Shown here: piece by piece, positions 2 to 20,099 of the stretch | Position numbering within the stretch: the first letter of the stretch is position 1 | Layout: each line of letters opens with the position of its first letter | Origin: Candidatus Hermodarchaeota archaeon | GTDB taxonomy: Archaea > Asgardarchaeota > Heimdallarchaeia > Hodarchaeales > Hodarchaeaceae | NCBI GenBank assembly: GCA_048886185.1 | Contig: JBHLKY010000018.1 | Location: 67,992 to 99,991 of the forward strand | Length of the DNA: 32,000 nucleotides | Direction: 5' to 3' | Program-made: the position numbers and the translations under genes | The notes under the pieces: model-generated | Told to the model about the DNA's origin: nothing | Seen by the model: only the letters and a program-made list of their open reading frames with translations | Databases searched by the model: none

Positions 2-1381
2 TGGGAGGGACTCGGATCAGGAAATTTATTTCAAAATATGATTATTGGAGGGACAGATAAAAATGGAAGAAGAGGTGATAACGAAATATCAATGTTAATT
101 TTACAAGCAGCTATAAATTGCCAAACAATACAACCAACTTTATCAATATGGTATGATGATTCTCTTAGTGAGGAATTTCTTTTAAAAGCTGTCGAATGTG
201 TGAAAACTGGATGTGGTTTCCCCGCTTGGTTTAATCTCAAAATCTATATCCAACATGAATTACAAAAATCTGGATTACCAGTTCCTGTTATTAGGAAATA
301 TGCTGCTATGGGAGGCTGTACCGAACCAACCATAGAAGGGATGAGTTATGGAATTGTTCAACCAGGATTTATTAATCATGGGAAATTACTTGAATTAGCA
401 ATGTATGGGGGAAAAGATTTACGTACAGGATTGCAATTCACTGAAACAAAGATCCCTCAAAACTATAAAGAAGTGATTGAAGCTTATAAAACTCATTTAA
501 AAGTATCTATTCAGAATTGGCAATCTTACTGGAACATCGTTATGGCCGCTCATCGACAGACCTGTAATCTAATTTACTCTTCTGTTTTAATCCAAGATTG
601 TGTAGAAAGAGGTTTATCTCTTGATGATGGTGGTGCAATTTGCAATGAAGTACCGACTACTCTTTCAACAGGCATGGTAAATGTTGCAAATTCTCTTGCT
701 GCAGTAAAAAAGCTTGTAGAAGATCAAAGACTGTATACAATGGCAGATGTTATAGAAGCTTGTAAAAGTAATTTTAGCAACAATGATGAAATGAGAAGAA
801 AGGCCCTTGATGCTCCTAAATGGGGTAATGATGATGATTATGTGGATGAGATTTTTATCGATCTTTTTAATACCTACTGTGATTTTGTAAAGAATGGGAT
901 AAATTACCTAGGTAAACCATACGATCCATCAATGTTGGCAATTAGTACCCATACACCATTTGGGAAAGTAACAGGAGCAACACCTGATGGTAGACTATCA
1001 GGAGTATCATTATGTGATGGAGTAACTTCACCATTCCCTGGAACTGACACCAATGGACCAGTTGCTACAATCTTATCAGCAGCGAAAGTTGACCATACTA
1101 AAATACGAGGTGGACTTCACAATATGAAATTCCATCCTAGTGCTCTAAAAGGAATTTCAGGTTCACAAAAATTAATTTCCTTGATTAAAACATATTTTGA
1201 TTACCTTGGTTTTCAATTGCAATTCAATGTAGTTGATACCAAGATGTTAAGGGATGCTCAAAAGAATCCAGATAAATATCGTGATTTAATAGTCAGAGTT
1301 GCTGGATTTAGTGCTTTCTTTGTTGAATTAAGTAAGTCTATTCAAGACCAAGTTATCGAAAGAACAGAGTTAATGCTTTGA
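2..1381 (+). CDS. Glycyl radical enzyme (PFL/GRE superfamily), C-terminal part, 5'-truncated by the window edge; resembles the hydroxyphenylacetate/indoleacetate decarboxylase clade
   Basis: The frame is open from base 2 (WEGLGSGNLFQNMIIGG...), so the ORF-track ATG at 38 is internal. Cys loop GGCTEP (TGT 317-319) and C-terminal glycyl radical motif RVAGFSAFF (Gly codon 1304-1306). The segments QPTLSIWYD, FPAWFN and MKFHPSALKG resemble HpdB as I recall it. Confidence 0.93.
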   Translation, partial: WEGLGSGNLFQNMIIGGTDKNGRRGDNEISMLILQAAINCQTIQPTLSIWYDDSLSEEFLLKAVECVKTGCGFPAWFNLKIYIQHELQKSGLPVPVIRKYAAMGGCTEPTIEGMSYGIVQPGFINHGKLLELAMYGGKDLRTGLQFTETKIPQNYKEVIEAYKTHLKVSIQNWQSYWNIVMAAHRQTCNLIYSSVLIQDCVERGLSLDDGGAICNEVPTTLSTGMVNVANSLAAVKKLVEDQRLYTMADVIEACKSNFSNNDEMRRKALDAPKWGNDDDYVDEIFIDLFNTYCDFVKNGINYLGKPYDPSMLAISTHTPFGKVTGATPDGRLSGVSLCDGVTSPFPGTDTNGPVATILSAAKVDHTKIRGGLHNMKFHPSALKGISGSQKLISLIKTYFDYLGFQLQFNVVDTKMLRDAQKNPDKYRDLIVRVAGFSAFFVELSKSIQDQVIERTELML

Positions 1382-2334
1382 TGACATTGATACCAGATAA
1401 TAAAAGTCCATTATCCTTCAAAAATGAAGAAACAATAATTTTTAATATACAAGATTATTGTGTGGATGATGGGCCAGGAATAAGGACAGTGATCTTTTTT
1501 AAAGGCTGTTATCTTCGATGTCATTGGTGTTCAAACCCAGAAAGTCAATTATTTGAGCCAGAAATTTTTTACTCGGGACTAAAGTGCAAAAAATGTAGAA
1601 AATGTGAAAAAACATGTCCAAATTCCAGTATTGATTTTTCTAATATAGAATTCCCACTTTTTAACAGAAATATTTGTTCAATCTGTGAATCAAAGATTTG
1701 TACTAAGGTGTGTCCTGAAAATGCTTTAAGAACTGTTGGTTACCCTATTACAGTTTTAGATTTACTTAAGAGAGTAAAAAAGAATTCATTATTATTCAGG
1801 AATTCCGGAGGTGGGATTACTCTCTCAGGTGGTGAACCACTGGCTCATATAGCCTTTATTAGGGAATTCTTAAAGAAAACTACGGCATTAGGATTTTCTG
1901 TTGGGATAGAGACTTGTGGTTTTTTTAATTGGCAAAGGGTGATCGATATTATACCAAATATTGATTTTTTCTTTTTTGACTTGAAGATTATGGATTCAAA
2001 ATTTCATAAAGCATTAACAGGGGTAAATAATGATAAGATTCACTTAAATCTTAAAAAATTAAGTCAAACTGAGGCCAAAAAAATTACTATTTCTATCCCA
2101 ATTGTTCCAGGTATTAATGATTATCTAGAAAACATTAAAAAAACCGTTAATTTATGTACAGAATTTGGAATCAAAAAAATTCGGTTTCTAAAGTATCATG
2201 AATGGGGAAGAGGTAAATATGAAGAATTGGGTCGTCAATATTTGCTAAATGAAAGAATGAAACTACAAGAAAATGATCTTAAAACCTTTGAAAAATTGGC
2301 TAAAGAAGCTGGTCTACAAGTTACTATTATTTAG
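1381..2334 (+). CDS. Glycyl-radical enzyme activating enzyme (radical SAM) with a ferredoxin-like insertion
   Basis: DGPGIRT, CxxxCxxC (CYLRCHWC), NPESQ, two extra Cys clusters (CKKCRKCEKTCP; CSICESKICTKVCP) and GGGITLSGGEP. The ATG overlaps the GRE stop (TGATG); alternative TTG start at 1378. Confidence 0.95.
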   Translation: MTLIPDNKSPLSFKNEETIIFNIQDYCVDDGPGIRTVIFFKGCYLRCHWCSNPESQLFEPEIFYSGLKCKKCRKCEKTCPNSSIDFSNIEFPLFNRNICSICESKICTKVCPENALRTVGYPITVLDLLKRVKKNSLLFRNSGGGITLSGGEPLAHIAFIREFLKKTTALGFSVGIETCGFFNWQRVIDIIPNIDFFFFDLKIMDSKFHKALTGVNNDKIHLNLKKLSQTEAKKITISIPIVPGINDYLENIKKTVNLCTEFGIKKIRFLKYHEWGRGKYEELGRQYLLNERMKLQENDLKTFEKLAKEAGLQVTII

Positions 2335-2590: not shown

Positions 2591-5500
2591 TTACTTTAGA
2601 AGATCACTAGTGCCATAAATTTTTTCATAAGCTAAGATAATTTTTGAGATTAATTTCCTGATATCAATAATCTTTACTATGATTGTACCTTTCTCTGAAT
2701 TTTCATTATTCATGAGCTTGTGAACAACATCTACTTTTTCACGAATCTCGTCAAGAAATTGAACAATTAATGGAAATACATCTTGATATATCAAAATATT
2801 TAATGTTAAGTCCTCTTTACCTCCCCTTGCTTGAGGCCGCTGTAGAGTAAAACCAAAACAGAGGGATTTTAGAAGAAGGTTTTTTGATAATAGAAAGTCA
2901 AAATTTGAAGTCATTTCTCCCTCAAAGTCTTGAATATCACCTATTACACCAAAAGATCTGTCAGACAATTCGATTAATTTGGAAAGATTATCCTTTAATA
3001 TTTCGGGGATTATGATAATTGGAATTGGGCCACGTCGCTGATCAAAAAAAGCTATAACTACCCCGATTGTATGAATATCTAGAAATTCAAATGCTTCCGT
3101 TTCGCTAACTTCAGAGATTTGATTAAGTACTAATTCTTTATCCAAACCAATCAATTCTGGTTTCCTAAAGATCCTGAGGTAGATAAGTGATCCAAAAATC
3201 GTTGAGGCAATTGAGATCCCAAAAATCATCACAATAATTATCGGATCAAATAGCCTTGTCTCTTTTTCAAAATGAAATTCTTTTATTCTATCTGGATCAT
3301 TAAGTATATTATAAGTAATCCCCGTATTTCCACTGCTATCAGTTGTTTCAATATAGAATATTATTGCTTTAGATGTATTATTATGCTCAAATGGAATAGT
3401 TACTGAATAACTATGAATATCATTAGTCATATTGACCGAGAGGAGTGACATCTTTGCAGCTTGCCAATTAGGATTGCCATTTTGCTGAAAACTAGCTTTA
3501 ATACCTAATAATGTTATTTTAGTTTCTGTTATTTCTCTAAAATAATAGTAAAGAAATACTTCTTCAATTTCAGATCCATAATCGATAATATTTGAAAGAA
3601 ATGTTATATTAGTAGGATTAATGTAATCATTAAAGCCAATAGTTGGATTCCCTACAACACGGGGCGGACTTTTGTCTTCTACATGAAATGAAAAGGTAAA
3701 ATCAACATATATCATATATTCCTTATCGTTATAATCTAGAAAACAAGCCGCTTTTACTTTGGTTATGAGAGTTTTCCCTAGATAATTATCATAAAACTCG
3801 TTTAAGGGTAGATTATAATCTAAAATCCATATTGAATCGTTAATTGGACTTCTTTGAGCATAATAAATTATTCCTGAGGAATCATTAATCAAGAATTCTA
3901 CTGTAACAATTGGATTGAGACTGTAAGTAACCACTTGAAATTCATATCTTCCTTCATCAAGGTAAATACCATTATCATCGATTATTACAGGTTGCACATT
4001 GCAACTCAGAATGTATGGACGACTTTCGACATAAATCACTTTCAGATTCACACTTTTTCCTAGATCTGTGCCATCAAAAGGAGTTATTTTACATTTCCAG
4101 TACTCTCCTGGTGATGTTTCAGATGATGGTATGAATGTTTTATTTTGAGAAGCGAAAACTTCCTCCCATTCACTAGTTTCTAATCGGCAGAACCATTGAA
4201 TCTTTGATTGGTCAGTATCTATTGGTTGATCGCTATCCTCAAACTCATAAAAAAGTGAAATAATTTCATCTTCAATAAAAAAAACTTGTCCCACCAACGT
4301 AGATCTTATTTCTGGGATAATATGACTACAACTTGAATTAAAGATATATGAATAATTGTACACCCTAGGGGGAACATTAAGGATGAGGATAGCTCTTGAA
4401 GTTTGCTCAATTCCATAATTTAGTCCATCCTTTGGTTTAACTGTAACAAACCAACGATCATTTTTTACCAAATAAGTGGCTGGTACTTGGTGAGAATCAT
4501 TATGGAGGGGTTGTAAAACGTCGTTTTTATACCAGCGTATTTCAGTCCCTCCTTCACTATCACCATCACGATCATAAAAACTATATTGGACATAAAGAGT
4601 ATCATTACTACGAATAAGAGCTTCAAAACGATCTTTATTACTTGAAAGTTGTAGCTCTGTAATTTCAGGGTAATGATTTGGTACACTTGAAATTATTTCA
4701 TTAGATGTTCCTATATTCTCTTCTGTATCATTAGCAATTATAACATAGTGAAAAATGCCTTGACTTATCATCAAAGCATTAGTCATATATCCATTACTGG
4801 AATTTTCCATCACACACCATAATTTATTTTGTGGAACACCAGCAGCAAAAGTAATATTGACAATGACAGTATCTACTTCCCCCCAAGGGTCGCTTACATT
4901 TACTTTGAAGGTTCCGTTTTCCCCAAGTGTTGGATAATAGACTGGAGTACATATAACAGGAGTAATAAAGTCCTTGTCAAATGAATAATACTTGATATTT
5001 GAAGGAGAGTCAATATAATTCCCATTGGAATCTGAAGAATTTGTAATTTGAAATTGATAACATCTCTTATACAAAACTAGGGTTTTGTATAACCAATATG
5101 ATCCGTTATTCATCATTGAAAATTCTGTGCCATTAATTGAGATGTGTACTGTATCCACACTAGATAAGACATCTCTAATATCAGCCCAAAATATGCCTGT
5201 ACCATTCCCCAAATCATCTACTCCATGGTCAATAATTAATGGAGGATCTGTATCATATATTTGGGTAAAATTAACTTCAGCCCAGACTTCAGAACACCAA
5301 CATTCTCTATCTTGTTGTGGTAACGCTCGTAACATTACCCCTATCTCCATTGTATTCACTTCATCCCACGTCCATTTTGATGAAGTATTGGGATTAGTCG
5401 GGTAATTCGTAGAATGATTATTCCAGTTGTCTGAAGGTTCATTCAACGATCCAAGGAATTTTTTATCGTATGTACGTAATACTGTGCAGGCTCGAGCATT

Positions 5501-5992
5501 AGTAAATGATATACTAGTTCGAACGCGAATATTTAATGTTACAGAGTTGATAATACCTGAAATACCAGTAATATTTTGAGATTGATATGTATCTGTGTAC
5601 GAAGTGGCTGTAGAATAATCCTCAATAATAAAAGAACTGTCATTATTATCTGAGACAACTTGCCAATGAATAACTCCTAAAGGAATTTCAGAAGGAATTT
5701 CTGTTATAGTGCCATTACTAATAGGTTTTAATACTGTTAAATTGAAGTTACTAGCTAATTTATAACTAGGTTTCTTTCTAGCGGACGAATTTAGACAATT
5801 ATTTCTCAATTTGGGTATAAATTGATAAAATTCTTGTTTATATCCATTCAAAATAGCTTTACAGCAATTATATCCAGAATTGACATTCAAAGATTCAAAT
5901 GTTTCAGTGCAAAGTGGAAAGAAGAAGAATGTTATGTTTGTCATAGTACCAATAATTAGAAGAGATATGACAATTTTTTTGAGATCCTCCAC
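2591..5992 (-). CDS. Large single-pass membrane protein: beta-rich/Ig-like ectodomain, TM helix, cytoplasmic longin/uDENN-like domain
   Basis: 1133-aa ORF with a GTG start and an N-terminal hydrophobic segment. Paired internal repeats (Y.F.D.D....I.W....W...V.P.DG...G twice). Many N-x-S/T sequons. TM PIIIVMIFGISIASTIFGSLIYL at about 3176-3245. Cytoplasmic IGVVIAFFDQRRGPIP motif at about 3026-3050. Confidence 0.85.
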   Translation of the reverse strand: MEDLKKIVISLLIIGTMTNITFFFFPLCTETFESLNVNSGYNCCKAILNGYKQEFYQFIPKLRNNCLNSSARKKPSYKLASNFNLTVLKPISNGTITEIPSEIPLGVIHWQVVSDNNDSSFIIEDYSTATSYTDTYQSQNITGISGIINSVTLNIRVRTSISFTNARACTVLRTYDKKFLGSLNEPSDNWNNHSTNYPTNPNTSSKWTWDEVNTMEIGVMLRALPQQDRECWCSEVWAEVNFTQIYDTDPPLIIDHGVDDLGNGTGIFWADIRDVLSSVDTVHISINGTEFSMMNNGSYWLYKTLVLYKRCYQFQITNSSDSNGNYIDSPSNIKYYSFDKDFITPVICTPVYYPTLGENGTFKVNVSDPWGEVDTVIVNITFAAGVPQNKLWCVMENSSNGYMTNALMISQGIFHYVIIANDTEENIGTSNEIISSVPNHYPEITELQLSSNKDRFEALIRSNDTLYVQYSFYDRDGDSEGGTEIRWYKNDVLQPLHNDSHQVPATYLVKNDRWFVTVKPKDGLNYGIEQTSRAILILNVPPRVYNYSYIFNSSCSHIIPEIRSTLVGQVFFIEDEIISLFYEFEDSDQPIDTDQSKIQWFCRLETSEWEEVFASQNKTFIPSSETSPGEYWKCKITPFDGTDLGKSVNLKVIYVESRPYILSCNVQPVIIDDNGIYLDEGRYEFQVVTYSLNPIVTVEFLINDSSGIIYYAQRSPINDSIWILDYNLPLNEFYDNYLGKTLITKVKAACFLDYNDKEYMIYVDFTFSFHVEDKSPPRVVGNPTIGFNDYINPTNITFLSNIIDYGSEIEEVFLYYYFREITETKITLLGIKASFQQNGNPNWQAAKMSLLSVNMTNDIHSYSVTIPFEHNNTSKAIIFYIETTDSSGNTGITYNILNDPDRIKEFHFEKETRLFDPIIIVMIFGISIASTIFGSLIYLRIFRKPELIGLDKELVLNQISEVSETEAFEFLDIHTIGVVIAFFDQRRGPIPIIIIPEILKDNLSKLIELSDRSFGVIGDIQDFEGEMTSNFDFLLSKNLLLKSLCFGFTLQRPQARGGKEDLTLNILIYQDVFPLIVQFLDEIREKVDVVHKLMNNENSEKGTIIVKIIDIRKLISKIILAYEKIYGTSDLLK

Positions 5993-8410: not shown

Positions 8411-9460
8411 ATGCAAGTAATACACGAAAAAAAAAATGAGTTGATTTTTGAGATGGTATTTCAAGAATTCGCTCAAGAAATATATCCAGAAGTGATTACT
8501 GGAAAAGATCTTTATTATATGCTAAAACTAGCTTCCCAAAAGCTAGAAAAATATATTGAGATACTTAATGACATAAATGTATTTCCTGTACCAGATGGAG
8601 ATACAGGAATTAACATGCACCAAACTTTTCAATCTATTATCAGGGAATTGAATAATTTAGAATTTTATGATCATTGTGGAAAAATTATTTGTTCTGCAGC
8701 AAAAGGAGCTTTTTTTGGCAGTATTGGTAACTCTGGTATAATTCTAGCTGAATATTTTCGTGGACTAGAACAAGAATGGAAAAATTCATGTACTATTGAC
8801 GGAAAACTATTTTCTAGAGGCTTATTTGCAGCAGCAAAATATGCTTACCAAGCTGTTGAAAAACCTAGAGAGGGAACTATTCTTACAGTTGGAAGAATTA
8901 TAGCAGAGACAGCAGATGAATGGATTAAGACAGTAACAAATCCTTTTGAATTATTGTTTATTGTTTTTGAGGAAGCTAAAGCAGCTTTATTAAATACACA
9001 TAGAATTTTACCGGAAGCAAATGTTGCAGGGGTTGTTGATGCTGGAGCAATTGGCCTAGTGCTAATGTTTGATGGATTTATCGAAGCTATGGTTAATAAA
9101 TATCCATCTAGTGCTCTCCCATTATATACAATTGATGATGACCTAGCTCCTTTTTTGAAGCTAAAAATTGATTTCTCACTAATTAAGCATGAGTTTGAAG
9201 TAATCTTTAAAATCTCTGGTTTAAAGAAACCTATGGATAATCTTAAAGTTGAACTAAAAAAAGAAGGATCTTGTCTTCTAATTATTAGTAATGATTCAGT
9301 TTCTGAAATTAAAGTTCATATCCACTGTACAGATCCTGATAGAGTTATATCGAAAGTAAAAGATTTTGTAAGCCATATAGAAGTAGATTCAATTAAATCA
9401 CTAAATGAACAAAATTACCAACTGTCAAAGCGTATCAAAATGAAAAATGGGAGTGAATGA
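8411..9460 (+). CDS. fakA: DAK2-domain protein, fatty acid kinase catalytic subunit FakA-like (short form)
   Basis: Signature INVFPVPDGDTGINM, GNSGIILAEYFRG, AYQAVEKPREGTILTV and VVDAGAIG, plus middle-domain KVHIH. At 349 aa it lacks the C-terminal domain of the roughly 550-aa Firmicute FakA. Confidence 0.85.
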   Translation: MQVIHEKKNELIFEMVFQEFAQEIYPEVITGKDLYYMLKLASQKLEKYIEILNDINVFPVPDGDTGINMHQTFQSIIRELNNLEFYDHCGKIICSAAKGAFFGSIGNSGIILAEYFRGLEQEWKNSCTIDGKLFSRGLFAAAKYAYQAVEKPREGTILTVGRIIAETADEWIKTVTNPFELLFIVFEEAKAALLNTHRILPEANVAGVVDAGAIGLVLMFDGFIEAMVNKYPSSALPLYTIDDDLAPFLKLKIDFSLIKHEFEVIFKISGLKKPMDNLKVELKKEGSCLLIISNDSVSEIKVHIHCTDPDRVISKVKDFVSHIEVDSIKSLNEQNYQLSKRIKMKNGSE

Positions 9461-10353
9461 ACACGAAAATAGGCGTTGTAACTGACAGTATGTGTGATTT
9501 ACCATCAAGCACTTCTGAAAAATATGGAATTATAGTTGTCCCAGGTATTGTATATGTTAATGGAAATCCCTTCCATAGTGGTGTGGATATTCATCCTGAA
9601 GATATCCAAACCATAATAGAAGACAAAGAGAAAAAAATTCAAACAGGAGCACCATCTCCTGCTGCTTATTATATGGCCTACGAGAATCTATATGATAAGG
9701 TAGATATTATATTAAGTTTACATTGCCCTATCAAACATTCAGGAGTGTTGAACGCAGCCAAAGCAGGTGCAAGACGTTTAGAAGACTCATCTCGGGTTGT
9801 TCACTTTGAGTGTGGAGTCGCGACTATTGGTTTAGGAATTACAGCTGTAGCAACAGCAATCAAATCACAACAAATCGAAACTAAACAGGAATTAATACGT
9901 CTAGTTCAAGAGTATTGTACAAAGATCCAGATAATAGGAACCCTAGAGTCCTTTAAATATCTTCAAAGAAGTGGTAGATTAGGCCTAAAAGTTGCGGGTT
10001 GGATTGCTAGTACTTTATCTATAAAACCTGTTCTTTTGATGAGAAATTCTGATATATTTCTGTTAAAAAAACCCCGAGATAGAAAGGTGGCTCTTAATCA
10101 GCTTATTTATAATCTATCTAAGAAGATCGATAAAGAAATTAATCCAAAAATTATTGGAATTAGTCACTTCGGATGTGAGGGAGAATTAAATGAAATAGAA
10201 AAGAAAATAAAAGGAATACTGCCAAATCATATGATTATTAGAGGTTATGCAGATCCAATGGTTGCTGCTAATACTGGACCAGGATTAGTATTAATAGCCT
10301 ACTTCGCTAATTTTATGGATAATTTAGATAATGGAATAAAAATAAATGCTTGA
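9457..10353 (+). CDS. fakB: DegV-family fatty-acid-binding protein (FakB-like)
   Basis: IGVVTDSMCDLP, QTGAPSP, HSGVLNAA, LQRSGRLG, LSIKPVL and NTGPG. ATGA overlap with the fakA stop. Confidence 0.9.
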   Translation: MNTKIGVVTDSMCDLPSSTSEKYGIIVVPGIVYVNGNPFHSGVDIHPEDIQTIIEDKEKKIQTGAPSPAAYYMAYENLYDKVDIILSLHCPIKHSGVLNAAKAGARRLEDSSRVVHFECGVATIGLGITAVATAIKSQQIETKQELIRLVQEYCTKIQIIGTLESFKYLQRSGRLGLKVAGWIASTLSIKPVLLMRNSDIFLLKKPRDRKVALNQLIYNLSKKIDKEINPKIIGISHFGCEGELNEIEKKIKGILPNHMIIRGYADPMVAANTGPGLVLIAYFANFMDNLDNGIKINA

Positions 10354-11011
10354 AATCATATTTTCAGGAATATTTGGCTACTTAACAGGATCAATTTTCA
10401 TTTCTTATTATTGGGGAAAAATAAATGGTATTGATTTAACAAAAGAGGGGACAGGGCAATTAGGCGCATCGAATACAGGTCGAAACTTGGGATGGCCTGC
10501 TATGGTAGTAGTTGGGTTATTTGATATATTAAAAGCCACAATTACTCTTACAATCTTGCATTTCTTTTTCAATCATATGGTTCCTTCTCCCCATTATGAA
10601 GTTTTATTAATAACTGGCAGTTTAGGGATTGTTTTAGGCCATATAAAATCCTTATGGATTTGGTTAGAAAAACATGATTGGTATGGAGGAAAAGGAGGTG
10701 CACCCTTTGGAGGAATTCTTTTGTTTCTATCATTGGAAAGCTTCATTATTTTATATGTTGTATTAATGGTTTTTCTGCAACTACTAAAGCTGTTTATATT
10801 GAAAGGAGGATCATATGATAACTTCTCAACAAATGTTATTGTTGTTTTATTGTCTCCTTTTGTCATTCTTTGGTTTACAGGAAAAATTTTATACTTCATT
10901 TTAGTACTCCTAATAATTGGTACAATCATTTTCTTTGAAAGGGAGAAAATCGCTAGTGTACTCACGATTACATTATTAAAGGGATCTAGAGAAGCAATAG
11001 ACGAATCATAA
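10346..11011 (+). CDS. plsY: Acyl-phosphate:glycerol-phosphate acyltransferase PlsY-like membrane protein
   Basis: GYLTGSI, GTGQLGASNTGRNLG (motif 1), FDILKA, LGH and GGKGGA (motif 2), in a multi-TM protein. Overlaps the fakB stop by 8 nt. Motif 3 is divergent. Confidence 0.85.
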   Translation: MLEIIFSGIFGYLTGSIFISYYWGKINGIDLTKEGTGQLGASNTGRNLGWPAMVVVGLFDILKATITLTILHFFFNHMVPSPHYEVLLITGSLGIVLGHIKSLWIWLEKHDWYGGKGGAPFGGILLFLSLESFIILYVVLMVFLQLLKLFILKGGSYDNFSTNVIVVLLSPFVILWFTGKILYFILVLLIIGTIIFFEREKIASVLTITLLKGSREAIDES

Positions 11012-11062
11012 TAAGCTGAACGTATCTAAAAATTTTTTAAGAAAATTCCCCTTTGTAAGAAT

Positions 11063-11866
11063 ATGAGTATTGAGCGAGCAATTTATGAAATAAAAACAAA
11101 GCACGGAACAGCCCGTCTAATAAATAAAACTGTGGATCGAAGGGGTCTTCCAGTTCTTTTTGTTCATGGATTTGGTAGTTCACCTGAAATTTGGTTTAAA
11201 TATCCTGATAGCCTTGGAAAATTCTTTTTACAAAAAAAAGAGATTGATGTATGGAGTTTAGGATTGTCAAACGCTATTAGTGGTGATATTGAGGTTCTCG
11301 CACAGGAAGATCTCTACACTTCATTGAGCTTTATATTCGAGAGGAGTGAAACACTGATTCATATCATTGCTCATAGTGTCGGGGGAATCATAGTGAGATT
11401 TCTTTTATGTCCCCATTTTCAGCATTCTGATTTAAAACCTGAAGAACTTGTTCAAGGAGTTTCCCTTCTATCTGTACCAAATCATGGAACTAATAAATTT
11501 AAGAGTGATAGAATTTGGAACACAATGAGTCTTATTACTAATTATATTAGGTTTAATCAATTATTTGTTCAAGTACTTCGATCAAGTGAACTTATTAATG
11601 CATTGAATAACCAGAAACCATGCTTGAATCCCAAAGTAAAGTGGCAAAATGCGGTCAGTTCTTTCGATAACTTAATTGAACCGGAAAGTATGAGATTTAT
11701 GGAAGAAGAATTGTTAGATATAGATCTTATACAAAAAGAGTTTCCCTGTGATCATATTGTTTACCCTTTAAAATGGCTTTTTAATGACAATTATCCACCC
11801 ATCCATAGATACTCACCTGTTGCTGAGTGGATATATAAGAATGCCTTCACCAAAATCAGTCAATAG
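11063..11866 (+). CDS. Alpha/beta-hydrolase, lipase/esterase-like
   Basis: Oxyanion VHGF, nucleophile elbow AHSVG (11369-11383), PNHGT, and candidate catalytic Asp (FDNLI) and His (CDHIV). No evident signal peptide. Confidence 0.85.
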   Translation: MSIERAIYEIKTKHGTARLINKTVDRRGLPVLFVHGFGSSPEIWFKYPDSLGKFFLQKKEIDVWSLGLSNAISGDIEVLAQEDLYTSLSFIFERSETLIHIIAHSVGGIIVRFLLCPHFQHSDLKPEELVQGVSLLSVPNHGTNKFKSDRIWNTMSLITNYIRFNQLFVQVLRSSELINALNNQKPCLNPKVKWQNAVSSFDNLIEPESMRFMEEELLDIDLIQKEFPCDHIVYPLKWLFNDNYPPIHRYSPVAEWIYKNAFTKISQ

Positions 11867-15602: not shown

Positions 15603-16430
15603 TTATCTTTCCATCCGTGTTCTAAGAAGTATCTCTTTAATTCTAGTATAAAATCCATTAAATCGATCAATACTTCTAGAGTCAATCATTAATATTAATC
15701 CAAAAGTGATTAATATATTAGTAACCAAGAAAAATAAAAATTCTTCAATAGGTAACATTCCTGCTAGGAGAATCCCTGTTGATGTATTTATATTAATAGT
15801 CCAGACCCCCTCTCCAATGGCAATCGCATCTACAACAGCTAGATAAATTGTAGAAACAGATATGACTGAGATTAGGTCTCGTCTTGACAACCAGAGAATG
15901 TCAGCTCCATAGATCAACTGAATTATTATTGGAGGTATCCCCCACAAAAGTATTAAATTTAGATAAGTTAAAGATTCTATTTTGTTGATAAATATAATAA
16001 AGGAAACCAACCAAATAATAAAAAAACTCAATGACGAAATCAACCGTAAATTTTGTTTCAGATCATAATGATTGTCCTTATTTGTTTTCTGAAGCTGGAT
16101 CCATCCAAATATTAATCCTATTAAGAGAGTTTGGAATACAAAAAAGGCATATTCTTCAATTGGCACAAAACCAATTAAAATACCTATAATTTTCGAATTC
16201 TCATAATACCAAATAGCATTTTCAACGAGAAAATTATCCCATGGAGTAGTATAAGTAATGGCTACAACTATTAAAATCGTTAAAGCAATTAAGATTCTTT
16301 TTATCATCGTTTTCTGATTTTCTTCCCCTTCCTGATATTTTCTACGGTAAAGAATAGTGACAACCGCTAAAGGTAACCCAATAAAGATAAGGAGGAAAGT
16401 AAAATATGATAACACTATTTTCTCTTCCAT
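15603..16430 (-). CDS. crtY: Lycopene cyclase, heterodimeric CrtYc/d type fused as two domains
   Basis: TTPWDNFLV...IW.Y, GFVPIEEYAFF and a second copy VDAIAIGEGVW...LPIEEFLFF. Multi-TM. TAATG overlap with crtI. Confidence 0.88.
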   Translation of the reverse strand: MEEKIVLSYFTFLLIFIGLPLAVVTILYRRKYQEGEENQKTMIKRILIALTILIVVAITYTTPWDNFLVENAIWYYENSKIIGILIGFVPIEEYAFFVFQTLLIGLIFGWIQLQKTNKDNHYDLKQNLRLISSLSFFIIWLVSFIIFINKIESLTYLNLILLWGIPPIIIQLIYGADILWLSRRDLISVISVSTIYLAVVDAIAIGEGVWTININTSTGILLAGMLPIEEFLFFLVTNILITFGLILMIDSRSIDRFNGFYTRIKEILLRTRMER

Positions 16431-18013
16431 TAATTGAAATCGCTATTGCTAGAGTTTTTCTTCGAAGAAATATTTTTATATCTGATAATTAAATCTGTGG
16501 TTACTTTTGCACTGGAAACAACACCAGGTAATCCTGCTCCTGGATGAGTTCCAGCACCCACTAAATAGAGACCATCAATGTCTTCAGATTTGTTATGTGG
16601 ACGGAACCACGCTGATTGAGTAAAAATTGGTTCAACAGAAAAGCCAGAACCTTTAAAGCTATTATAATCTCGTTCAAAATCGAGTGGAGTTAAAATTCGC
16701 TCTGTAACTAAGTTCTCTTTTAGTCCAGGGAGATAATTCTCTTCAAGAAAATCAAAAATTCGTTGTTTAAATGGTTCAGCCATTTTTTCCCAATTAATAC
16801 CAGAATCTAGATGAGGGACTGGAATCAGAATGTAAAAAGTTTCATGTCCTTCAGGTGCTAAACTTGGATCAGTTCGAGTGGGGAGATGTAAATAGCTGGA
16901 AAAATCTTCCGCTAAAATCTTTTTCTTGAAAATATCTTCCAATAATCCTTTGTAGCGGGGACCCAAAATAATTGTGTGATGTTTCATCTCTGGATATTGC
17001 TTTTTCGTACCAAAATAAATTACTACTAATCCCATAGAATATTTTGCTTTTTTATAACGTTTATCACTATTTTTCTTACGCCACTTGGCATCAATCATTT
17101 TTGTGTATGTAAAAGCTGGATCAGCATTACTAATTATAATTTTAGATGGATAAAAATCATTTGAAGTAGTGAAAACGCCTACAGCTTGATTTTTTCTGAT
17201 CTCAATCTTTTTTACCTCAGTATTCAATACAATTTTACCCCCAAGCTCCTCAAATAGGTCTGCTAACGCATTTACTAACACAGTTGTACCACCACGAGCA
17301 AACCAAACTCCAAATTCTTTTTCGAGGTATTGAATAAGGCTATAAATTGAAGGAACCGAGAATGGATTCCCACCAATAAGTAAAGGATGAAAACTAAATA
17401 CCATTCTGAGATTTTCATGTCTTATATACTTAGAGACAAAATTATAATTTGATCGATATGATTGCAGCTTGATAAGAGAGGGAGCTACTTTAAGCATAGA
17501 AGTGAACTTGTGAAATGGTTTAAATGATAAGTCTTTGAATCCTTTCTCGTAGATCGGTTTAACTGCTTTAAGCATACGTTTATATCCTTCTACATCTTCA
17601 GGACTTATTTTTTCAATTTGAGGAATGTTTTTATCTGGAGTGGAATAGTCAAAAAAACTTCCATCGTTGAAATGAATCCGGTAAAAGGGCTCCACAGGGA
17701 CTAACTTAACATAATCCTCCAATTTTCGATCAGCTAAGCTAAATAAATCCCTAAAGATGTCAGGTACTGTTATCACAGTTGGTCCTCCGTCAAAAATGAA
17801 ACCTTGATCTTTGAAGACTCTAGCTCGACCACCAACCTGATCTAATTTTTCTAACATGATAACATTATATCTACCCGTGGCTTGGAGTCGAATTCCAGCC
17901 GCCAATCCCCCAATCCCTGACCCAACGATAACTACGGGTTCGAGATTCGTTTCAAATTGTTTATGTTGAAACATCTGAGACTGTTTATCATGGTTATTAC
18001 TCATTTCTCGCAC
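16430..18013 (-). CDS. crtI: Phytoene desaturase (CrtI family)
   Basis: FAD-binding VIVGSGIGGLAAG, EK.DQVGGRA and FDGGPTVIT, with C-terminal LYLVGAGTHPGAGLPGVVSSA. Confidence 0.95.
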   Translation of the reverse strand: MREMSNNHDKQSQMFQHKQFETNLEPVVIVGSGIGGLAAGIRLQATGRYNVIMLEKLDQVGGRARVFKDQGFIFDGGPTVITVPDIFRDLFSLADRKLEDYVKLVPVEPFYRIHFNDGSFFDYSTPDKNIPQIEKISPEDVEGYKRMLKAVKPIYEKGFKDLSFKPFHKFTSMLKVAPSLIKLQSYRSNYNFVSKYIRHENLRMVFSFHPLLIGGNPFSVPSIYSLIQYLEKEFGVWFARGGTTVLVNALADLFEELGGKIVLNTEVKKIEIRKNQAVGVFTTSNDFYPSKIIISNADPAFTYTKMIDAKWRKKNSDKRYKKAKYSMGLVVIYFGTKKQYPEMKHHTIILGPRYKGLLEDIFKKKILAEDFSSYLHLPTRTDPSLAPEGHETFYILIPVPHLDSGINWEKMAEPFKQRIFDFLEENYLPGLKENLVTERILTPLDFERDYNSFKGSGFSVEPIFTQSAWFRPHNKSEDIDGLYLVGAGTHPGAGLPGVVSSAKVTTDLIIRYKNISSKKNSSNSDFN

Positions 18014-18100
18014 GTCTATTCCCTTAACAAATCAATGTGGCATTCATAATAAAGACTTTTTCAACTAAAAACCTATTTTCGAAAGGTATTTAAGTATTTA

Positions 18101-18129
18101 TTCATGAAGTTGATTTGATTCATGAACTG
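18101..18129. promoter_or_regulatory. Candidate operator in the crtI/crtB divergent promoter
   Basis: TTCAT(18101-18105)-N16-ATGAA(18122-18126), which is also two ATTCATGAA copies 18 nt apart. It lies just downstream of the TATA-like TTTAAGTA relative to crtB. Confidence 0.6.
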
Positions 18130-18146
18130 TTAATGGGTAATTTAAA

Positions 18147-19091
18147 ATGTATTCAACTCAAAACACAATCGATTGGGGACTTTATCCAAAAAATATGATA
18201 ACTAAATACAGTTTATTGGATAAAACACTTGAAGAAAGCTATCAAGTCTGTTTAGAGTGGATGGCAGAGCATAGTAAATCATTCTATTTTGCTAGCCGAT
18301 TTTTACCTGAAGATCAACGTAAAAGTGTTGCTGCTCTCTATGCTATTTGTCGATTAAGCGATGATATAGTTGATGAAGCTCCAGAGGGAGTCACCATTGA
18401 GCAGATTAATTATGAACTTGATCAACTGAAAAATACTATTACACAATTGGCCAATGGATATAGTTCTACTAATCCAATTCTTCATGCATTTGGAGATACC
18501 TTGCGTCAACATCAAATTCCAGTTCATTACATGCATGAGCTTATAGAGGGTGTGAGAATGGACCTTATAAAAACCGAGTACTATTCAGAGGTTGAACTCG
18601 ATTTATACATGTATCGGGTTGCAAGTACTGTTGGTCAAATGATGACTCACATCTTTATTAGAAATCCAGCGAAACAAACACTAGCAAGAGCTGCAGATCT
18701 AGGTAAAGCAATGCAATTAACCAATATATTAAGAGATATTAAAGAAGATTTCCTAAAGGGGCGAATATACCTTCCACAAGAAACTCGGAATGACTATCAA
18801 GTTACCGTTGAGGATTTAAGATCTGATAAAGTTAATGAGAACCTCAAATCACTAATTCGTTATGAATCTAGAAGAGCAAAAGCTTTCTATAACATAGCTG
18901 AACTTGGTATTGAGGAATTACCCCCTGCAGGAGCTTATACGGTAAAAGTTGCCTCAAGAGTATATGGGGAGATTCTTAATGAGATAAAGCGACGCAAATA
19001 TCAAGTTTTAAGTCAACGAGCGGTTGTTTCTAAACTAAGAAAAATCATTCTAGCTACTAAAGTACGTTTAGAATATGTACAAAAACTTTAA
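18147..19091 (+). CDS. crtB: Phytoene synthase
   Basis: HSKSFYFASRFLP, LYAICRLSDDIVDE, YRVASTVG and AMQLTNILRDIKED..GRIYLP. Confidence 0.95.
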   Translation: MYSTQNTIDWGLYPKNMITKYSLLDKTLEESYQVCLEWMAEHSKSFYFASRFLPEDQRKSVAALYAICRLSDDIVDEAPEGVTIEQINYELDQLKNTITQLANGYSSTNPILHAFGDTLRQHQIPVHYMHELIEGVRMDLIKTEYYSEVELDLYMYRVASTVGQMMTHIFIRNPAKQTLARAADLGKAMQLTNILRDIKEDFLKGRIYLPQETRNDYQVTVEDLRSDKVNENLKSLIRYESRRAKAFYNIAELGIEELPPAGAYTVKVASRVYGEILNEIKRRKYQVLSQRAVVSKLRKIILATKVRLEYVQKL

Positions 19092-19125
19092 GCAGTTCAT
19101 AAAATAACAATACGTCATGAACAGC
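19092..19125. promoter_or_regulatory. Second copy of the candidate operator, upstream of the B12 regulator
   Basis: GCAGTTCAT-N16-ATGAACAGC (8/9 arm match), with the same TTCAT-N16-ATGAA geometry as the site at 18101-18126. Confidence 0.55.
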
Positions 19126-19157
19126 TTCAAGAAATCCTAGAATGGACGCACCGCCCT

Positions 19158-20099
19158 ATGGAAAATACTCAATTACCAGCAAGAGATCGCATATTTCGAT
19201 ACTTAAGAAAAAATCGCGGAAGAGAAGTGCCTGCTTCTGAGCTCGCATCTCGCCTAGATCTCAAACGTTCAACAATTTCTAACGCCATAAAGGAACTTAA
19301 TCTACTTGGATTAATCGAAATCGAACGACGTCCACTTAAGCGAGGGCGATATACAGTAATATACTTGACTGAAGACCTAATAAAAGAACCGTACATACAT
19401 AAGAATGAGATATTGAAGAGAAAAAAGGAGTCTAAAGAGCGAAGAAATGAGGAAATATCCCCTTTCTTTGAATCAGCTACCATGGCTGATACAATTAAAT
19501 ACCTTAAATCCCCTAATTATAACACTGAGGAGTTTTTTATAAAAATTGATTCAATATTTACTGATAGGATCTCTCTTATCACTGATTTTATAACCCCACT
19601 AATGCATGAGGTCGGTGAACAATGGGCTCGAACAGATCTTTCAACAGCTGAAGAACATGTTATTTCTAATCGAATTATCCAGCTTATCGATGCAAGAATG
19701 CCAACAAATGATAATATAGAAAAAAAAGGCCTCGTAATATTAGTACCTGTAGAAGGGGAAAGACATGTCATAAGTTTATTGGCCTTAGAATATATTCTCC
19801 GAGATTTAAAATATAATACCATTAATCTAGGTCGCGCATTACCCGTTGGATCATTAATTCAATACATCAAAACCCTTCCAATGTTACCTGATTGGATTTT
19901 TATGTCCGTTACCCTTCCCACATATCTTGGAACAATTAGACGAAATTTGGAATATTTATATGATAATTTTAATGATCAAATTCGTTTTGCTGTCGGTGGG
20001 CAGGGAATTTCAGAGAATGAACGCAATTTATTTCCTGAAGCGGATGTTGTGGCCATTAATAAAGAGGATTTAATGAATTTTATTAAAATACTTAGATAA
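19158..20099 (+). CDS. CarH/LitR-type cobalamin-binding transcriptional regulator with an N-terminal winged-helix domain
   Basis: N-terminal HTH (ASELASRLDLKRSTISNAIKEL...GLI). W-x9-E-H motif (19623-19658). E-x-H-x-x-S at 19758-19775 (canonical ExHxxG). LGRALP, MSVT and GGQG of the B12 Rossmann domain. Adjacent to crtB. Confidence 0.88.
   Translation: MENTQLPARDRIFRYLRKNRGREVPASELASRLDLKRSTISNAIKELNLLGLIEIERRPLKRGRYTVIYLTEDLIKEPYIHKNEILKRKKESKERRNEEISPFFESATMADTIKYLKSPNYNTEEFFIKIDSIFTDRISLITDFITPLMHEVGEQWARTDLSTAEEHVISNRIIQLIDARMPTNDNIEKKGLVILVPVEGERHVISLLALEYILRDLKYNTINLGRALPVGSLIQYIKTLPMLPDWIFMSVTLPTYLGTIRRNLEYLYDNFNDQIRFAVGGQGISENERNLFPEADVVAINKEDLMNFIKILR

What the first reader, a model, noticed from the sequence alone, without database searches (positions are those of the whole stretch)
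8411..11866. Coupled lipase - FakA - FakB - PlsY module: a bacterial-type fatty-acyl lipid route in a probable archaeon
Seen: four co-oriented genes. The first three overlap (ATGA at 9457-9460; 8 nt at 10346-10353) and the hydrolase follows 51 nt later. Established: FakA/FakB convert free fatty acids to acyl-phosphate, and PlsY transfers acyl-phosphate to glycerol-3-phosphate to make lysophosphatidic acid. Archaeal membranes are normally isoprenoid ethers on glycerol-1-phosphate. Inference: the four genes form a self-contained salvage pathway that releases fatty acid, phosphorylates it and esterifies it. It needs no ACP or PlsX and could yield ester or chimeric lipids. That would bear on the lipid divide if the host is Asgard. 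Scattered archaeal plsY homologs have been discussed before, so the novelty lies in the full operon.
Basis: partly seen in the sequence, partly recalled or inferred. Interest (0 to 1): 0.85.

Follow-up and report, generated by a model that had tools for sequence, protein, structure and literature searches.

The report
Asgard fatty-acid kinase–PlsY gene cassette
An archaeon from the group closest to eukaryotes (Hodarchaeales) carries a conserved gene cassette that should activate free fatty acids and hand them to a membrane acyltransferase, which gives a cloneable test of whether such archaea make bacterial-style ester lipids.

Summary
They encode a short FakA-like kinase (Dak2 plus middle domain, no C-domain), a DegV/FakB-type fatty-acid binder, a divergent PlsY-family acyltransferase and an alpha/beta hydrolase.

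The host is an Asgard archaeon of the Hodarchaeales, not a bacterium. The kinase-DegV-PlsY trio keeps this order in 10 of 22 genomes of the genus and in a second family of the class. In a sister family PlsY and the kinase are one fused protein on a contig that also carries archaeal ribosomal protein genes. The genome has no PlsX, no FakA C-domain and no DhaK. It does have glycerol kinase, two G1P-dehydrogenase-like genes and five PlsC-family genes.

The most likely function is fatty acid to acyl-phosphate to acyl transfer onto a glycerol phosphate. The window's clade departs from the bacterial enzymes. The glycerol-3-phosphate pocket of PlsY is altered (His177 to Glu, Asn180 to Lys), the FakA zinc-site Cys is Glu, and DegV His270 is Asn. 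The acceptor and the final lipid are therefore open.

The hydrolase is an add-on in one subclade, and a lipase role is unproven. This scan had already noted the same module on other DNA. I found no paper describing it.

The parts
8411..9460 (+). Short FakA-like kinase (FakA_NL architecture): Dak2/DhaL ATP-binding domain plus FakA middle domain, no C-terminal FakB-binding domain. A likely alternative start is 8453 (Met15).
   Evidence: PF02734 scores 104 bits and PF21645 36.5 bits. TIGR03599 scores 221.6 bits, below its 396 cut-off, and matches profile positions 2-302 of 530. The nucleotide/Mg ligand equivalents N32, D38, D40, T41, N82 and D185 are conserved. Zinc-site His282 and His284 are kept and Cys240 is Glu. 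Database versions are 335 aa.
9457..10353 (+). DegV/FakB-type fatty-acid-binding protein. It overlaps the kinase gene by 4 nt.
   Evidence: PF02645 scores 155 bits over its full length, and TIGR00762 scores 183 bits against a 99.7 cut-off. Equivalents of Thr62, Ser95, Ser171 and Arg173 are kept, and His270 is Asn. It is the only DegV gene in the genome.
10346..11011 (+). Divergent PlsY-family acyl-phosphate-dependent membrane acyltransferase. It overlaps DegV by 8 nt.
   Evidence: PF02660 scores 81 bits against a 24.1 cut-off. TIGR00023 scores 67.9 bits, below its 137 cut-off. The acyl-phosphate side is kept (Thr41 as Ser, His92, Lys104, GGKG). The G3P pocket is changed: Ser35 to Thr, Asn37 to Gln, His177 to Glu, Asn180 to Lys. 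It is the only PlsY hit in the genome.
11012..11062 (.). 51-nt spacer with a T6 run at 11033-11038. This may be a terminator or a re-initiation point, so the hydrolase may be transcribed separately (inference).
11063..11866 (+). Cytoplasmic alpha/beta hydrolase (esterase/lipase-like) with a Ser105-Asp202-His231 triad and an AHSVG nucleophile elbow. It is an accessory member of the cassette in one subclade.
   Evidence: All Pfam hits fall below their cut-offs. The triad is invariant across 27 family members. The AF2 model has pLDDT 88.6. Foldseek returns generic alpha/beta hydrolases, with small lipases and esterases at lowest rmsd.

Best explanation
The cassette is a native, accessory lipid-salvage module of Hodarchaeales. 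DegV binds a free fatty acid. The short FakA (kinase plus zinc/dimerisation domain) phosphorylates the bound carboxylate with ATP to give acyl-phosphate. The co-translated PlsY-family membrane protein transfers that acyl group to a glycerol phosphate (G3P from glycerol kinase, or G1P from EgsA), giving a lyso-phosphatidic-acid-type ester lipid. PlsC-family enzymes elsewhere in the genome could acylate this further. In the window's subclade a cytoplasmic serine hydrolase next door probably frees the fatty acid from an intracellular ester. The route needs neither PlsX nor acyl-ACP.

Shown: gene identities, conserved order, the fusion, the archaeal host, and the absence of PlsX, FakA_C and Dak1. 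Inferred: every chemical step, the acceptor, and the fate of the product.
For: (1) Domain calls: Dak2 + FakA_M, DegV and PlsY.
(2) The kinase-DegV-PlsY order with overlapping stop and start codons is conserved in 11 loci of 10 genomes of the genus. It is also conserved in family f4, verified in L038-L041 and seen by coordinates in 4 more genomes.
(3) Fusion evidence for a functional link (Rosetta-stone): in sister family f2, PlsY + Dak2 + FakA_M form one 571-598-aa protein followed by DegV. FakA_NL-DegV fusions also exist. PlsY-DegV fusions in Chloroflexi are in print (PMC5700162).
(4) The three genes co-occur in the same 10 of 22 genus genomes and are jointly missing from the rest, including a closed 4.9-Mb genome.
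(5) S. aureus FakA_NL, the same two-domain architecture, is catalytically active, with about 11-fold weaker FakB affinity (PMC9136124).
(6) ATP/Mg ligands of FakA, the fatty-acid carboxylate network of DegV (4 of 5 residues) and the acyl-phosphate site of PlsY are conserved.
(7) No PlsX, no FakA_C and no Dak1 were found.
(8) Glycerol kinase scores 701 bits, over its cut-off. There are two G1P-dehydrogenase-like genes (283 and 325 bits) and five PlsC-family genes.
(9) Bacterial PlsY accepts both G1P and G3P in vitro (PMC13400652).
(10) dN/dS is 0.07-0.27.
Against: In the window's clade and the fused f2 forms, PlsY has Glu/Asp in place of His177 and no Asn180, and the window's clade also has Thr for Ser35. 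In Aquifex PlsY these residues clamp the phosphate and the 2-OH of G3P, and His177 tolerated no substitution (PMC5700162).

The FakA zinc-site Cys240, reported as 100% conserved and needed for activity, is Glu here (PMC11617999). DegV His270 is Asn. All three proteins score below NCBIfam equivalog cut-offs.

The cassette is patchy and non-syntenic, so it cannot be the main membrane pathway. Cultured Asgard archaea have so far shown only archaeal lipids (cited in PMC13400652). There is no expression data and no biochemistry.
Confidence: 0.5

Rival explanations
1. The kinase chemistry is the same, but the acceptor is different. The PlsY-like protein of Hodarchaeales uses acyl-phosphate to acylate something other than G3P or G1P. 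Candidates are an archaeal ether-lipid intermediate (GGGP or a lyso-archaetidic acid, giving a chimeric ether/ester lipid), a lipid head group or another phospho-alcohol.
For: The acyl-phosphate side of PlsY is conserved, while the residues contacting the G3P phosphate and 2-OH are replaced (Ser35 to Thr, His177 to Glu/Asp, Asn180 to Lys/Ser/Thr). A 5-residue insert before the GGKG motif is shared by f1 and f2 (residue roles from PMC5700162). The operon PlsY of family f4 keeps the canonical HRENI motif, so the Hodarchaeales form is derived. The genome encodes GGGPS and G1P-dehydrogenase-like genes.
Against: No acceptor-specific evidence exists. The protein keeps Arg45 and Lys104 of the phosphate clamp, which fits a phosphorylated small acceptor such as glycerol phosphate. 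No ether-lipid gene lies in or next to the cassette.
Confidence: 0.22
2. The DegV ligand is not an ordinary fatty acid. It could be an isoprenoid or other carboxylic acid, so the module activates and transfers a non-fatty acyl group.
For: DegV is very divergent from characterised FakBs (FakB1 model 82.7 bits against a 350 cut-off) and has Asn at the His270 position. The class shows a large DegV expansion, with up to 24 copies per genome, which suggests many ligand specificities. The host makes isoprenoids.
Against: The full-length DegV fold is present, and the Thr62/Ser95/Ser171/Arg173 equivalents that hold a carboxylate are conserved. All characterised family members bind fatty acids (PMC8892158, PMC5700162). 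Five PlsC-family genes and a lipase-like hydrolase fit acyl-lipid metabolism.
Confidence: 0.1
3. The module serves fatty-acid detoxification or sensing rather than lipid building. Free fatty acids are bound and phosphorylated to remove or signal them, as Fak influences regulation in S. aureus.
For: The cassette is accessory and patchy within the genus. Fak has regulatory effects in S. aureus (PMC5539427, listed).
Against: Tight coupling, and in f2 a physical fusion, of the kinase to a membrane acyltransferase argues that acyl-phosphate is consumed in an acyl transfer and is not an end product. Detoxification by incorporation would still run through the best explanation's chemistry.
Confidence: 0.08
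4. The Dak2 protein is a dihydroxyacetone kinase subunit (DhaL), or the contig is bacterial contamination, so there is no archaeal fatty-acid route.
For: The Dak2 domain is shared with DhaL (weak DhaL hit, 19 bits). The genome is a 75-contig assembly with 4.96% estimated contamination. No rRNA or other Rfam family was found on the contig.
Against: No Dak1/DhaK is present in five genomes. The FakA-specific middle domain is present, and the YloV/FakA models score 160-220 bits against 19 bits for DhaL. All close homologues (41-99% identity) come from Asgard bins, while the best bacterial FakA is 33-37% identical. A 1133-aa orphan gene 2.4 kb upstream has 72-79% orthologues in congeneric genomes, one of them closed. 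The fused form lies 5 kb from ribosomal proteins L19e, L32e and L5e/L18p on a 90.8-kb contig.
Confidence: 0.02

Closest known systems
Fatty acid kinase FakA/FakB of Bacillota (S. aureus, S. suis, B. subtilis YloV/DegV; PDB 7W7H, 7RM7, 4X9X) feeding PlsY
   Same: The system has two components: a Dak2-type ATP-binding domain plus a zinc middle domain, and a DegV-fold fatty-acid binder. All nucleotide/Mg ligands are conserved. The product would be acyl-phosphate, the donor used by PlsY.
   Different: The FakB-binding C-domain is absent from the protein and from the genome. The zinc-site Cys is Glu in this clade, and DegV His270 is Asn. The genes are translationally coupled to plsY, or fused to it in a sister family, whereas in Bacillota fakA, fakB and plsY are not described as one operon (my knowledge). 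The host is an archaeon.
Engineered S. aureus FakA_NL truncation (Subramanian et al. 2022, PMC9136124)
   Same: It has the same N + middle-domain architecture. It was shown to be an active kinase, with FakB Km 0.99 against 0.09 uM for the full-length enzyme.
   Different: That protein is a laboratory construct. Here the truncation is the natural form across a whole archaeal class (open frames of 305-365 aa).
Bacterial PlsY (Aquifex aeolicus 5XJ5; S. pneumoniae)
   Same: The Pfam family is the same. The alignment spans residues 4-187 of the 201-aa Aquifex chain. The acyl-phosphate 'phosphate hole' (His92, Lys104, GGKG, Thr41 as Ser) and Arg45 are kept.
   Different: His177 is Glu, Asn180 is Lys, Ser35 is Thr and Asn37 is Gln, and there is a 5-aa insert before GGKG. 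The protein scores below the TIGR00023 cut-off.
Previously reported 'orphan' PlsY/PlsC homologues of Asgard archaea (Villanueva 2017; Coleman 2019, PMC6431249; Manoharan 2019, PMC6737245)
   Same: These are PlsY-family genes in Asgard bins, and the same question of ester lipids in archaea applies.
   Different: Those papers treat plsY alone, and Coleman et al. judged it unlikely to work in lipid synthesis because PlsX is missing. Here a kinase-binder pair that would supply acyl-phosphate is encoded in the same operon or polypeptide. I found no paper linking DegV/FakA with Asgard or Heimdall-group archaea.
PlsY-DegV fusion proteins of Bellilinea caldifistulae and Thermanaerothrix daxensis (noted in Li et al. 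2017, PMC5700162)
   Same: This is a gene fusion tying PlsY to the Fak system, read as substrate channelling of labile acyl-phosphate.
   Different: In those bacteria the fusion partner is the binder (DegV). In the Hodarchaeales sister family the partner is the kinase (Dak2 + middle domain) at the PlsY C-terminus, and DegV is the next gene.

Membership tests
FakA (fatty acid kinase catalytic subunit; NF038248 / TIGR03599 YloV) | Dak2/DhaL-fold ATP-binding domain with the ligands Asn32, Asp38, Asp40, Thr41, Asn82 and Asp185 (S. aureus numbering) | tested here: met
   The motifs NVFPVPDGDTG, GNSG and VVDAG align to 7RM7 and 7W7H and are invariant in A1 and A3.
FakA (fatty acid kinase catalytic subunit; NF038248 / TIGR03599 YloV) | Middle domain (PF21645) with the Cys240/His282/His284 zinc site, reported as 100% conserved (PMC11617999) | tested here: not met
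   The domain is present (36.5 bits) and both His residues are invariant. Cys240 is Glu in the window's clade. It is Cys in f2, f4-f7 and bacteria, and Asp in a CPR short form. Glu could still bind a metal, but that is inference.
FakA (fatty acid kinase catalytic subunit; NF038248 / TIGR03599 YloV) | C-terminal DegV-like FakB-binding domain (PF13684) | tested here: not met
   The protein ends after the middle domain. There is no PF13684 hit in G000, G001, G008, G022 or G033.
FakA (fatty acid kinase catalytic subunit; NF038248 / TIGR03599 YloV) | Score over the curated NCBIfam cut-off | tested here: not met
   TIGR03599 scores 221.6 against 396.1, and NF038248 scores 159.5 against 975.
FakA (fatty acid kinase catalytic subunit; NF038248 / TIGR03599 YloV) | ATP-dependent phosphorylation of FakB-bound fatty acid | not testable with these tools
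   This needs an enzyme assay.
DegV / FakB fatty-acid-binding protein (PF02645, TIGR00762) | Full-length DegV domain over the curated cut-offs | tested here: met
   PF02645 scores 155 bits (cut-off 27) over profile positions 1-278 of 280. TIGR00762 scores 183.3 (cut-off 99.7).
DegV / FakB fatty-acid-binding protein (PF02645, TIGR00762) | Carboxylate hydrogen-bond network Thr62, Ser95, Ser171, Arg173 and His270 (PMC8892158) | tested here: inconclusive
   Four of the five residues are kept. His270 is Asn in the window's subclade and His in the other operon DegVs.
PlsY (acyl-phosphate:glycerol-3-phosphate acyltransferase; PF02660, TIGR00023) | Family membership by profile | tested here: inconclusive
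   PF02660 scores 81.2 bits, over its 24.1 cut-off. The TIGR00023 equivalog scores 67.9, below its 137.2 cut-off.
PlsY (acyl-phosphate:glycerol-3-phosphate acyltransferase; PF02660, TIGR00023) | Acyl-phosphate site: Thr41 (Ser tolerated), His92, Lys104-Gly105 in the GGKG motif | tested here: met
   A2 shows GAS, GH and GGKG. Residue roles are from PMC5700162.
PlsY (acyl-phosphate:glycerol-3-phosphate acyltransferase; PF02660, TIGR00023) | G3P pocket: Ser35, Arg45, Lys104 and Asn180 (phosphate clamp) and His177 (2-OH) | tested here: not met
   Arg45 and Lys104 are kept. Ser35 is Thr, His177 is Glu and Asn180 is Lys. The Ser142 equivalent was not mapped.
PlsY (acyl-phosphate:glycerol-3-phosphate acyltransferase; PF02660, TIGR00023) | Formation of lysophosphatidic acid from acyl-phosphate and G3P | not testable with these tools
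   This needs an enzyme assay.
Alpha/beta-hydrolase esterase/lipase (DUF676 / PGAP1 / LCAT-like) | Alpha/beta-hydrolase fold with a nucleophile elbow and a Ser-Asp-His triad | tested here: met
   The AHSVG elbow is present, and Ser105, Asp202 and His231 are invariant in 27 sequences. The AF2 model has pLDDT 88.6. Foldseek matches hundreds of alpha/beta hydrolases at E around 1e-9.
Alpha/beta-hydrolase esterase/lipase (DUF676 / PGAP1 / LCAT-like) | Membership of a curated lipase/esterase family, or a lipid substrate | tested here: inconclusive
   All Pfam hits fall below their cut-offs (DUF7379 31.2 against 33; DUF676 19.9 against 20.3). Atlas neighbours are LCAT/PGAP1/DUF676 clusters. Fold hits mix lipases, esterases and epoxide hydrolases.

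The most novel reading that the evidence does not exclude
Hodarchaeales, the archaeal order placed closest to eukaryotes, natively run a PlsX- and ACP-independent route (minimal FakA + FakB + a remodelled PlsY, channelled to the point of gene fusion). This route esterifies fatty acids onto glycerol phosphate, possibly of either stereochemistry. These cells would then carry acyl-ester or chimeric glycerolipids alongside isoprenoid ethers. That would be a living example of the mixed membrane invoked for the archaeal-to-eukaryotic lipid transition.
Probability: 0.2. Interest if true: 0.9.

Novelty: new variant of a known kind. Interest (0 to 1): 0.68.

Why it matters
The main printed objection to archaeal PlsY working in lipid synthesis is that archaea lack PlsX and so lack an acyl-phosphate supply (Coleman 2019, PMC6431249). 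A kinase-binder pair encoded in the same operon as PlsY, or in the same polypeptide, removes that objection for the Heimdall-group class. The recent finding that bacterial PlsY and PlsC accept G1P (PMC13400652) adds to this. Together they turn 'do the closest archaeal relatives of eukaryotes make ester lipids?' into a three-gene cloning experiment with an established coupled assay. The altered acceptor pocket also makes this a natural experiment on what PlsY-family enzymes can acylate.

Tried and rejected
- Complex prediction of the short FakA (A3) with DegV (A4) gave no verdict (score 0.20, mark 0.32). It is not used as evidence either way.
- The look-up of sequencing runs listed no RNA holder, so there is no expression information.
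- Folding the hydrolase from a single sequence gave an unusable model (pLDDT 38). It was redone with alignment A5.
- No SSU rRNA was found in the assembly. No tRNA was found in the window and no Rfam family on contig C18. Taxonomy therefore rests on proteins.
- I looked for flank synteny between the window and relatives' loci and found none.
- The quick FakA tree (63 rows) gave an f1 clade (SH-aLRT 94), a very long f2 branch and long-branch joins. The bacterial sample was biased to the best hits. No donor or direction of transfer can be named. No trees were built for DegV, PlsY or the hydrolase.
- GpsA: the PF01210 hits match only the N-terminal Rossmann region (33 bits against a 257 cut-off), so I rejected them as GpsA.
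- CdsA: the PF01148 hits are weak, near 25 bits, so this is left open.
- Contexts of distant hydrolase homologues were on contigs too short to be informative.
- The DhaL and contamination readings were considered and rejected.

Full report
**Observation.** One search confirms four co-oriented ORFs at 8411-9460, 9457-10353, 10346-11011 and 11063-11866. The overlaps are 4 nt (ATGA) and 8 nt, and a 51-nt spacer precedes the fourth gene. Pfam and NCBIfam identify them as follows:
- A 349-aa protein with a Dak2 domain (104 bits) and the FakA middle domain (36.5 bits). It matches only positions 2-302 of the 530-position YloV model.
- A full-length DegV (155 bits; TIGR00762 183 bits, over its cut-off).
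- A PlsY-family protein (PF02660 81 bits, over its cut-off; TIGR00023 67.9 bits, under its cut-off).
- An alpha/beta hydrolase whose Pfam hits all fall just below their cut-offs.

Databases start the first gene at Met15 (335 aa). The spacer before the hydrolase holds a T6 run at 11033-11038.

**Host.** The window is C18:67992-99991 of a 4.84-Mb, 75-contig assembly with 96% completeness and 4.96% contamination. No SSU rRNA is assembled. The archaeal, Asgard, Hodarchaeales assignment rests on four points:
- Close homologues of the kinase and of PlsY (41-99% identity) come only from bins labelled Hodarchaeota, Candidatus Hodarchaeum mangrovi, Heimdallarchaeota or Promethearchaeota, or carrying other Asgard labels given by submitters. 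The best bacterial FakA is 33-37% identical.
- The genome has a GGGPS-family gene and two G1P-dehydrogenase-like genes.
- A 1133-aa orphan gene 2.4 kb upstream in the window has 72-79% full-length orthologues in congeneric genomes, one of them closed. It belongs to a family found in 20 of 21 other genomes of the genus and hardly anywhere outside it.
- The fused form of the module in a sister lineage lies 5 kb from the ribosomal protein genes L5e/L18p, L19e and L32e on a 90.8-kb NCBI contig, beside an Arf-like GTPase. Another relative's locus holds archaeal Nre.

Contamination is therefore not a tenable explanation.

**Conservation.**
- Within the genus, the kinase, DegV and PlsY co-occur in the same 10 of 22 genomes and are jointly missing from the others, including a closed 4.9-Mb genome.
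- All 11 loci keep the order kinase-DegV-PlsY. Six of them, the window's subclade, add the hydrolase. One genome holds one locus of each kind.
- Flanking genes are not shared between loci, so the unit behaves as a cassette.
- Family f4 of the same class has the same three-gene order. This was verified in four loci and seen by coordinates in four more genomes.
- In family f2, PlsY, Dak2 and the middle domain are one polypeptide of 585-598 aa, with DegV overlapping its stop codon.
- The 5.8-billion-protein collection holds four clusters with this fused architecture, and also Dak2 + middle-domain + DegV fusions.
- Across 400 Asgard genomes, the FakA middle domain occurs only in the window's class (61 of 83 genomes) and in none of the 317 genomes outside it.
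- PlsY-family genes are wider spread (158 of 400), including roughly 400-aa forms in family f20.
- DegV is greatly expanded in families f3 and f4, with 9-24 copies in most genomes. It is single-copy and cassette-bound in the window's genus.
- dN/dS against three relatives is 0.07-0.27 for every gene.

**Residue-level reading: the kinase.** The FakA N-domain keeps every nucleotide/Mg ligand defined in S. aureus: Asn32, Asp38, Asp40, Thr41, Asn82 and Asp185. The middle domain keeps His282 and His284. Cys240 is Glu in the window's clade, and it is Cys in f2, f4-f7 and bacteria. Two later studies show that these residues form a structural zinc site needed for dimer stability and activity (PMC10848957, PMC11617999). 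A carboxylate ligand could preserve the site, but that is inference. [quoted passage not shown] The same N + L truncation of S. aureus FakA is an active kinase, with FakB Km 0.99 against 0.09 uM (PMC9136124).

**Residue-level reading: DegV.** DegV keeps the equivalents of Thr62, Ser95, Ser171 and Arg173. His270 is Asn in the window's subclade.

**Residue-level reading: PlsY.** PlsY keeps the acyl-phosphate site (Thr41 as Ser, His92, Lys104, GGKG) and Arg45. Four other positions differ: Ser35 is Thr, Asn37 is Gln, His177 is Glu and Asn180 is Lys. The fused f2 forms have Asp at position 177. The f4 operon PlsY is fully canonical (HRENI). In Aquifex PlsY, Ser35 and Asn180 clamp the G3P phosphate, His177 contacts the 2-OH, and no substitution of His177 was tolerated (PMC5700162). 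The Hodarchaeales enzyme is therefore a derived PlsY whose acceptor cannot be read from sequence.

**Genome context.**
- No PlsX was found in four genomes that are at least 94% complete.
- No Dak1/DhaK was found, which removes the dihydroxyacetone-kinase reading.
- No convincing GpsA was found.
- A bona fide glycerol kinase (701 bits) could supply G3P, and two EgsA-like genes could supply G1P.
- Five PlsC-family acyltransferase genes score over the Pfam cut-off, and the four archaeal control genomes have none.
- Bacterial PlsY and PlsC use either glycerol-phosphate enantiomer in vitro (PMC13400652).

**Hydrolase.** The family is rare: 32 representatives at E up to 1e-3 among 1.84 billion proteins. 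Ser105, Asp202 and His231 are invariant, as is the HG oxyanion motif. The N-terminus is hydrophilic, so the protein is probably cytoplasmic (by inspection). With the family alignment AlphaFold2 gives pLDDT 88.6. Foldseek returns generic alpha/beta hydrolases. Small lipases and esterases are the lowest-rmsd matches, but epoxide hydrolases also appear. Atlas neighbours are LCAT/PGAP1/DUF676-type clusters. Every genome of the genus has at least a weak match to the family, and most carry a strongly scoring copy of about 290-350 aa away from the cassette. The cassette copy is a second paralogue limited to one subclade. Its role as the fatty-acid-releasing step is plausible but unproven.

**Literature.** PlsY and PlsC homologues in Asgard bins are known (PMC6431249, PMC6737245). 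Coleman et al. judged them unlikely to function because PlsX is missing. PlsY-DegV fusions in two Chloroflexi were noted in 2017. Full-text searches found no paper connecting DegV, FakA or fatty acid kinase with Asgard or Heimdall-group archaea. This scan's own notebook already holds follow-ups of the same module in Hodarchaeales, other Heimdall-group archaea, DPANN archaea and a CPR bacterium. My results agree with them. They add the PlsY-kinase fusion with its ribosomal-protein neighbours, the class-wide counts, the hydrolase analysis and the GlpK/EgsA/PlsC inventory.

**Verdict.** The most likely function is salvage of free fatty acids through acyl-phosphate into an acyl-glycerol-phosphate-type lipid (confidence about 0.5). 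An altered acceptor is the main rival (about 0.2). It is a new variant of a known bacterial pathway in an evolutionarily important archaeal lineage, and it can be tested directly at the bench.

Noticed in passing
window 15603-20099: There is a carotenoid gene cluster: a lycopene-cyclase-like gene, a phytoene-desaturase-type amine oxidase and phytoene synthase. Next to it is a 313-aa protein combining an HTH/MarR domain with B12-binding domains, an architecture like CarH/LitR light-responsive regulators.
   Followed up: no
window 2591-5992 (- strand): This 1133-aa protein has no Pfam hit. It belongs to a family greatly expanded in this genus, with 33 matches in the window's genome, and it is embedded in open frames of up to about 8800 aa in relatives. 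It is almost absent outside the genus.
   Followed up: partly
window 2-2334: A glycyl-radical enzyme (PFL-like, cut at the window start) lies with its radical-SAM activase.
   Followed up: no
families f3 and f4 of the class (e.g. G037, G054, G075): DegV genes are expanded to 9-24 copies per genome in most genomes of f3 and f4, and PlsY-family genes to 8 or more in f4. The window's genus has one of each.
   Followed up: partly
L044:4703-5023 (G028) and other f3 genomes: In family f3 the FakA middle domain occurs as a stand-alone protein of about 100 aa. In G028 it sits next to a PhoU_div/DUF47 gene and an ABC ATPase. No Dak2 domain is adjacent.
   Followed up: partly
L047 (G270:C6:55000-64000): Four tandem PlsY-family genes of about 400 aa lie in family f20 (a different class of the phylum). 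The PlsY domain covers only the first 190 residues, the GGKG motif reads GGQG, and motif 3 is absent.
   Followed up: no
P0250, P0288, P0309; L061:968-2806: Single proteins fuse Dak2 + FakA middle domain + a true DegV domain, which is a kinase-binder fusion. Their organisms are unidentified.
   Followed up: partly
L040:5139-5981 (G037): The cassette DegV is split into two ORFs of 97 and 175 aa in this genome. This may be a frameshift, a pseudogene or an assembly error.
   Followed up: no
G000:C3:104208-104393: A small 89-aa ORF has a PP-binding (acyl-carrier-like) domain just over the Pfam cut-off (25.6 bits). Counterparts occur in two congeners.
   Followed up: no
L024:3956-5152 and 2713-3897; L060:8655-11078: Downstream of the fused PlsY-kinase and DegV genes, a radical-SAM protein, a DUF1786 protein and an Arf-like GTPase are conserved in two genomes.
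   Followed up: no
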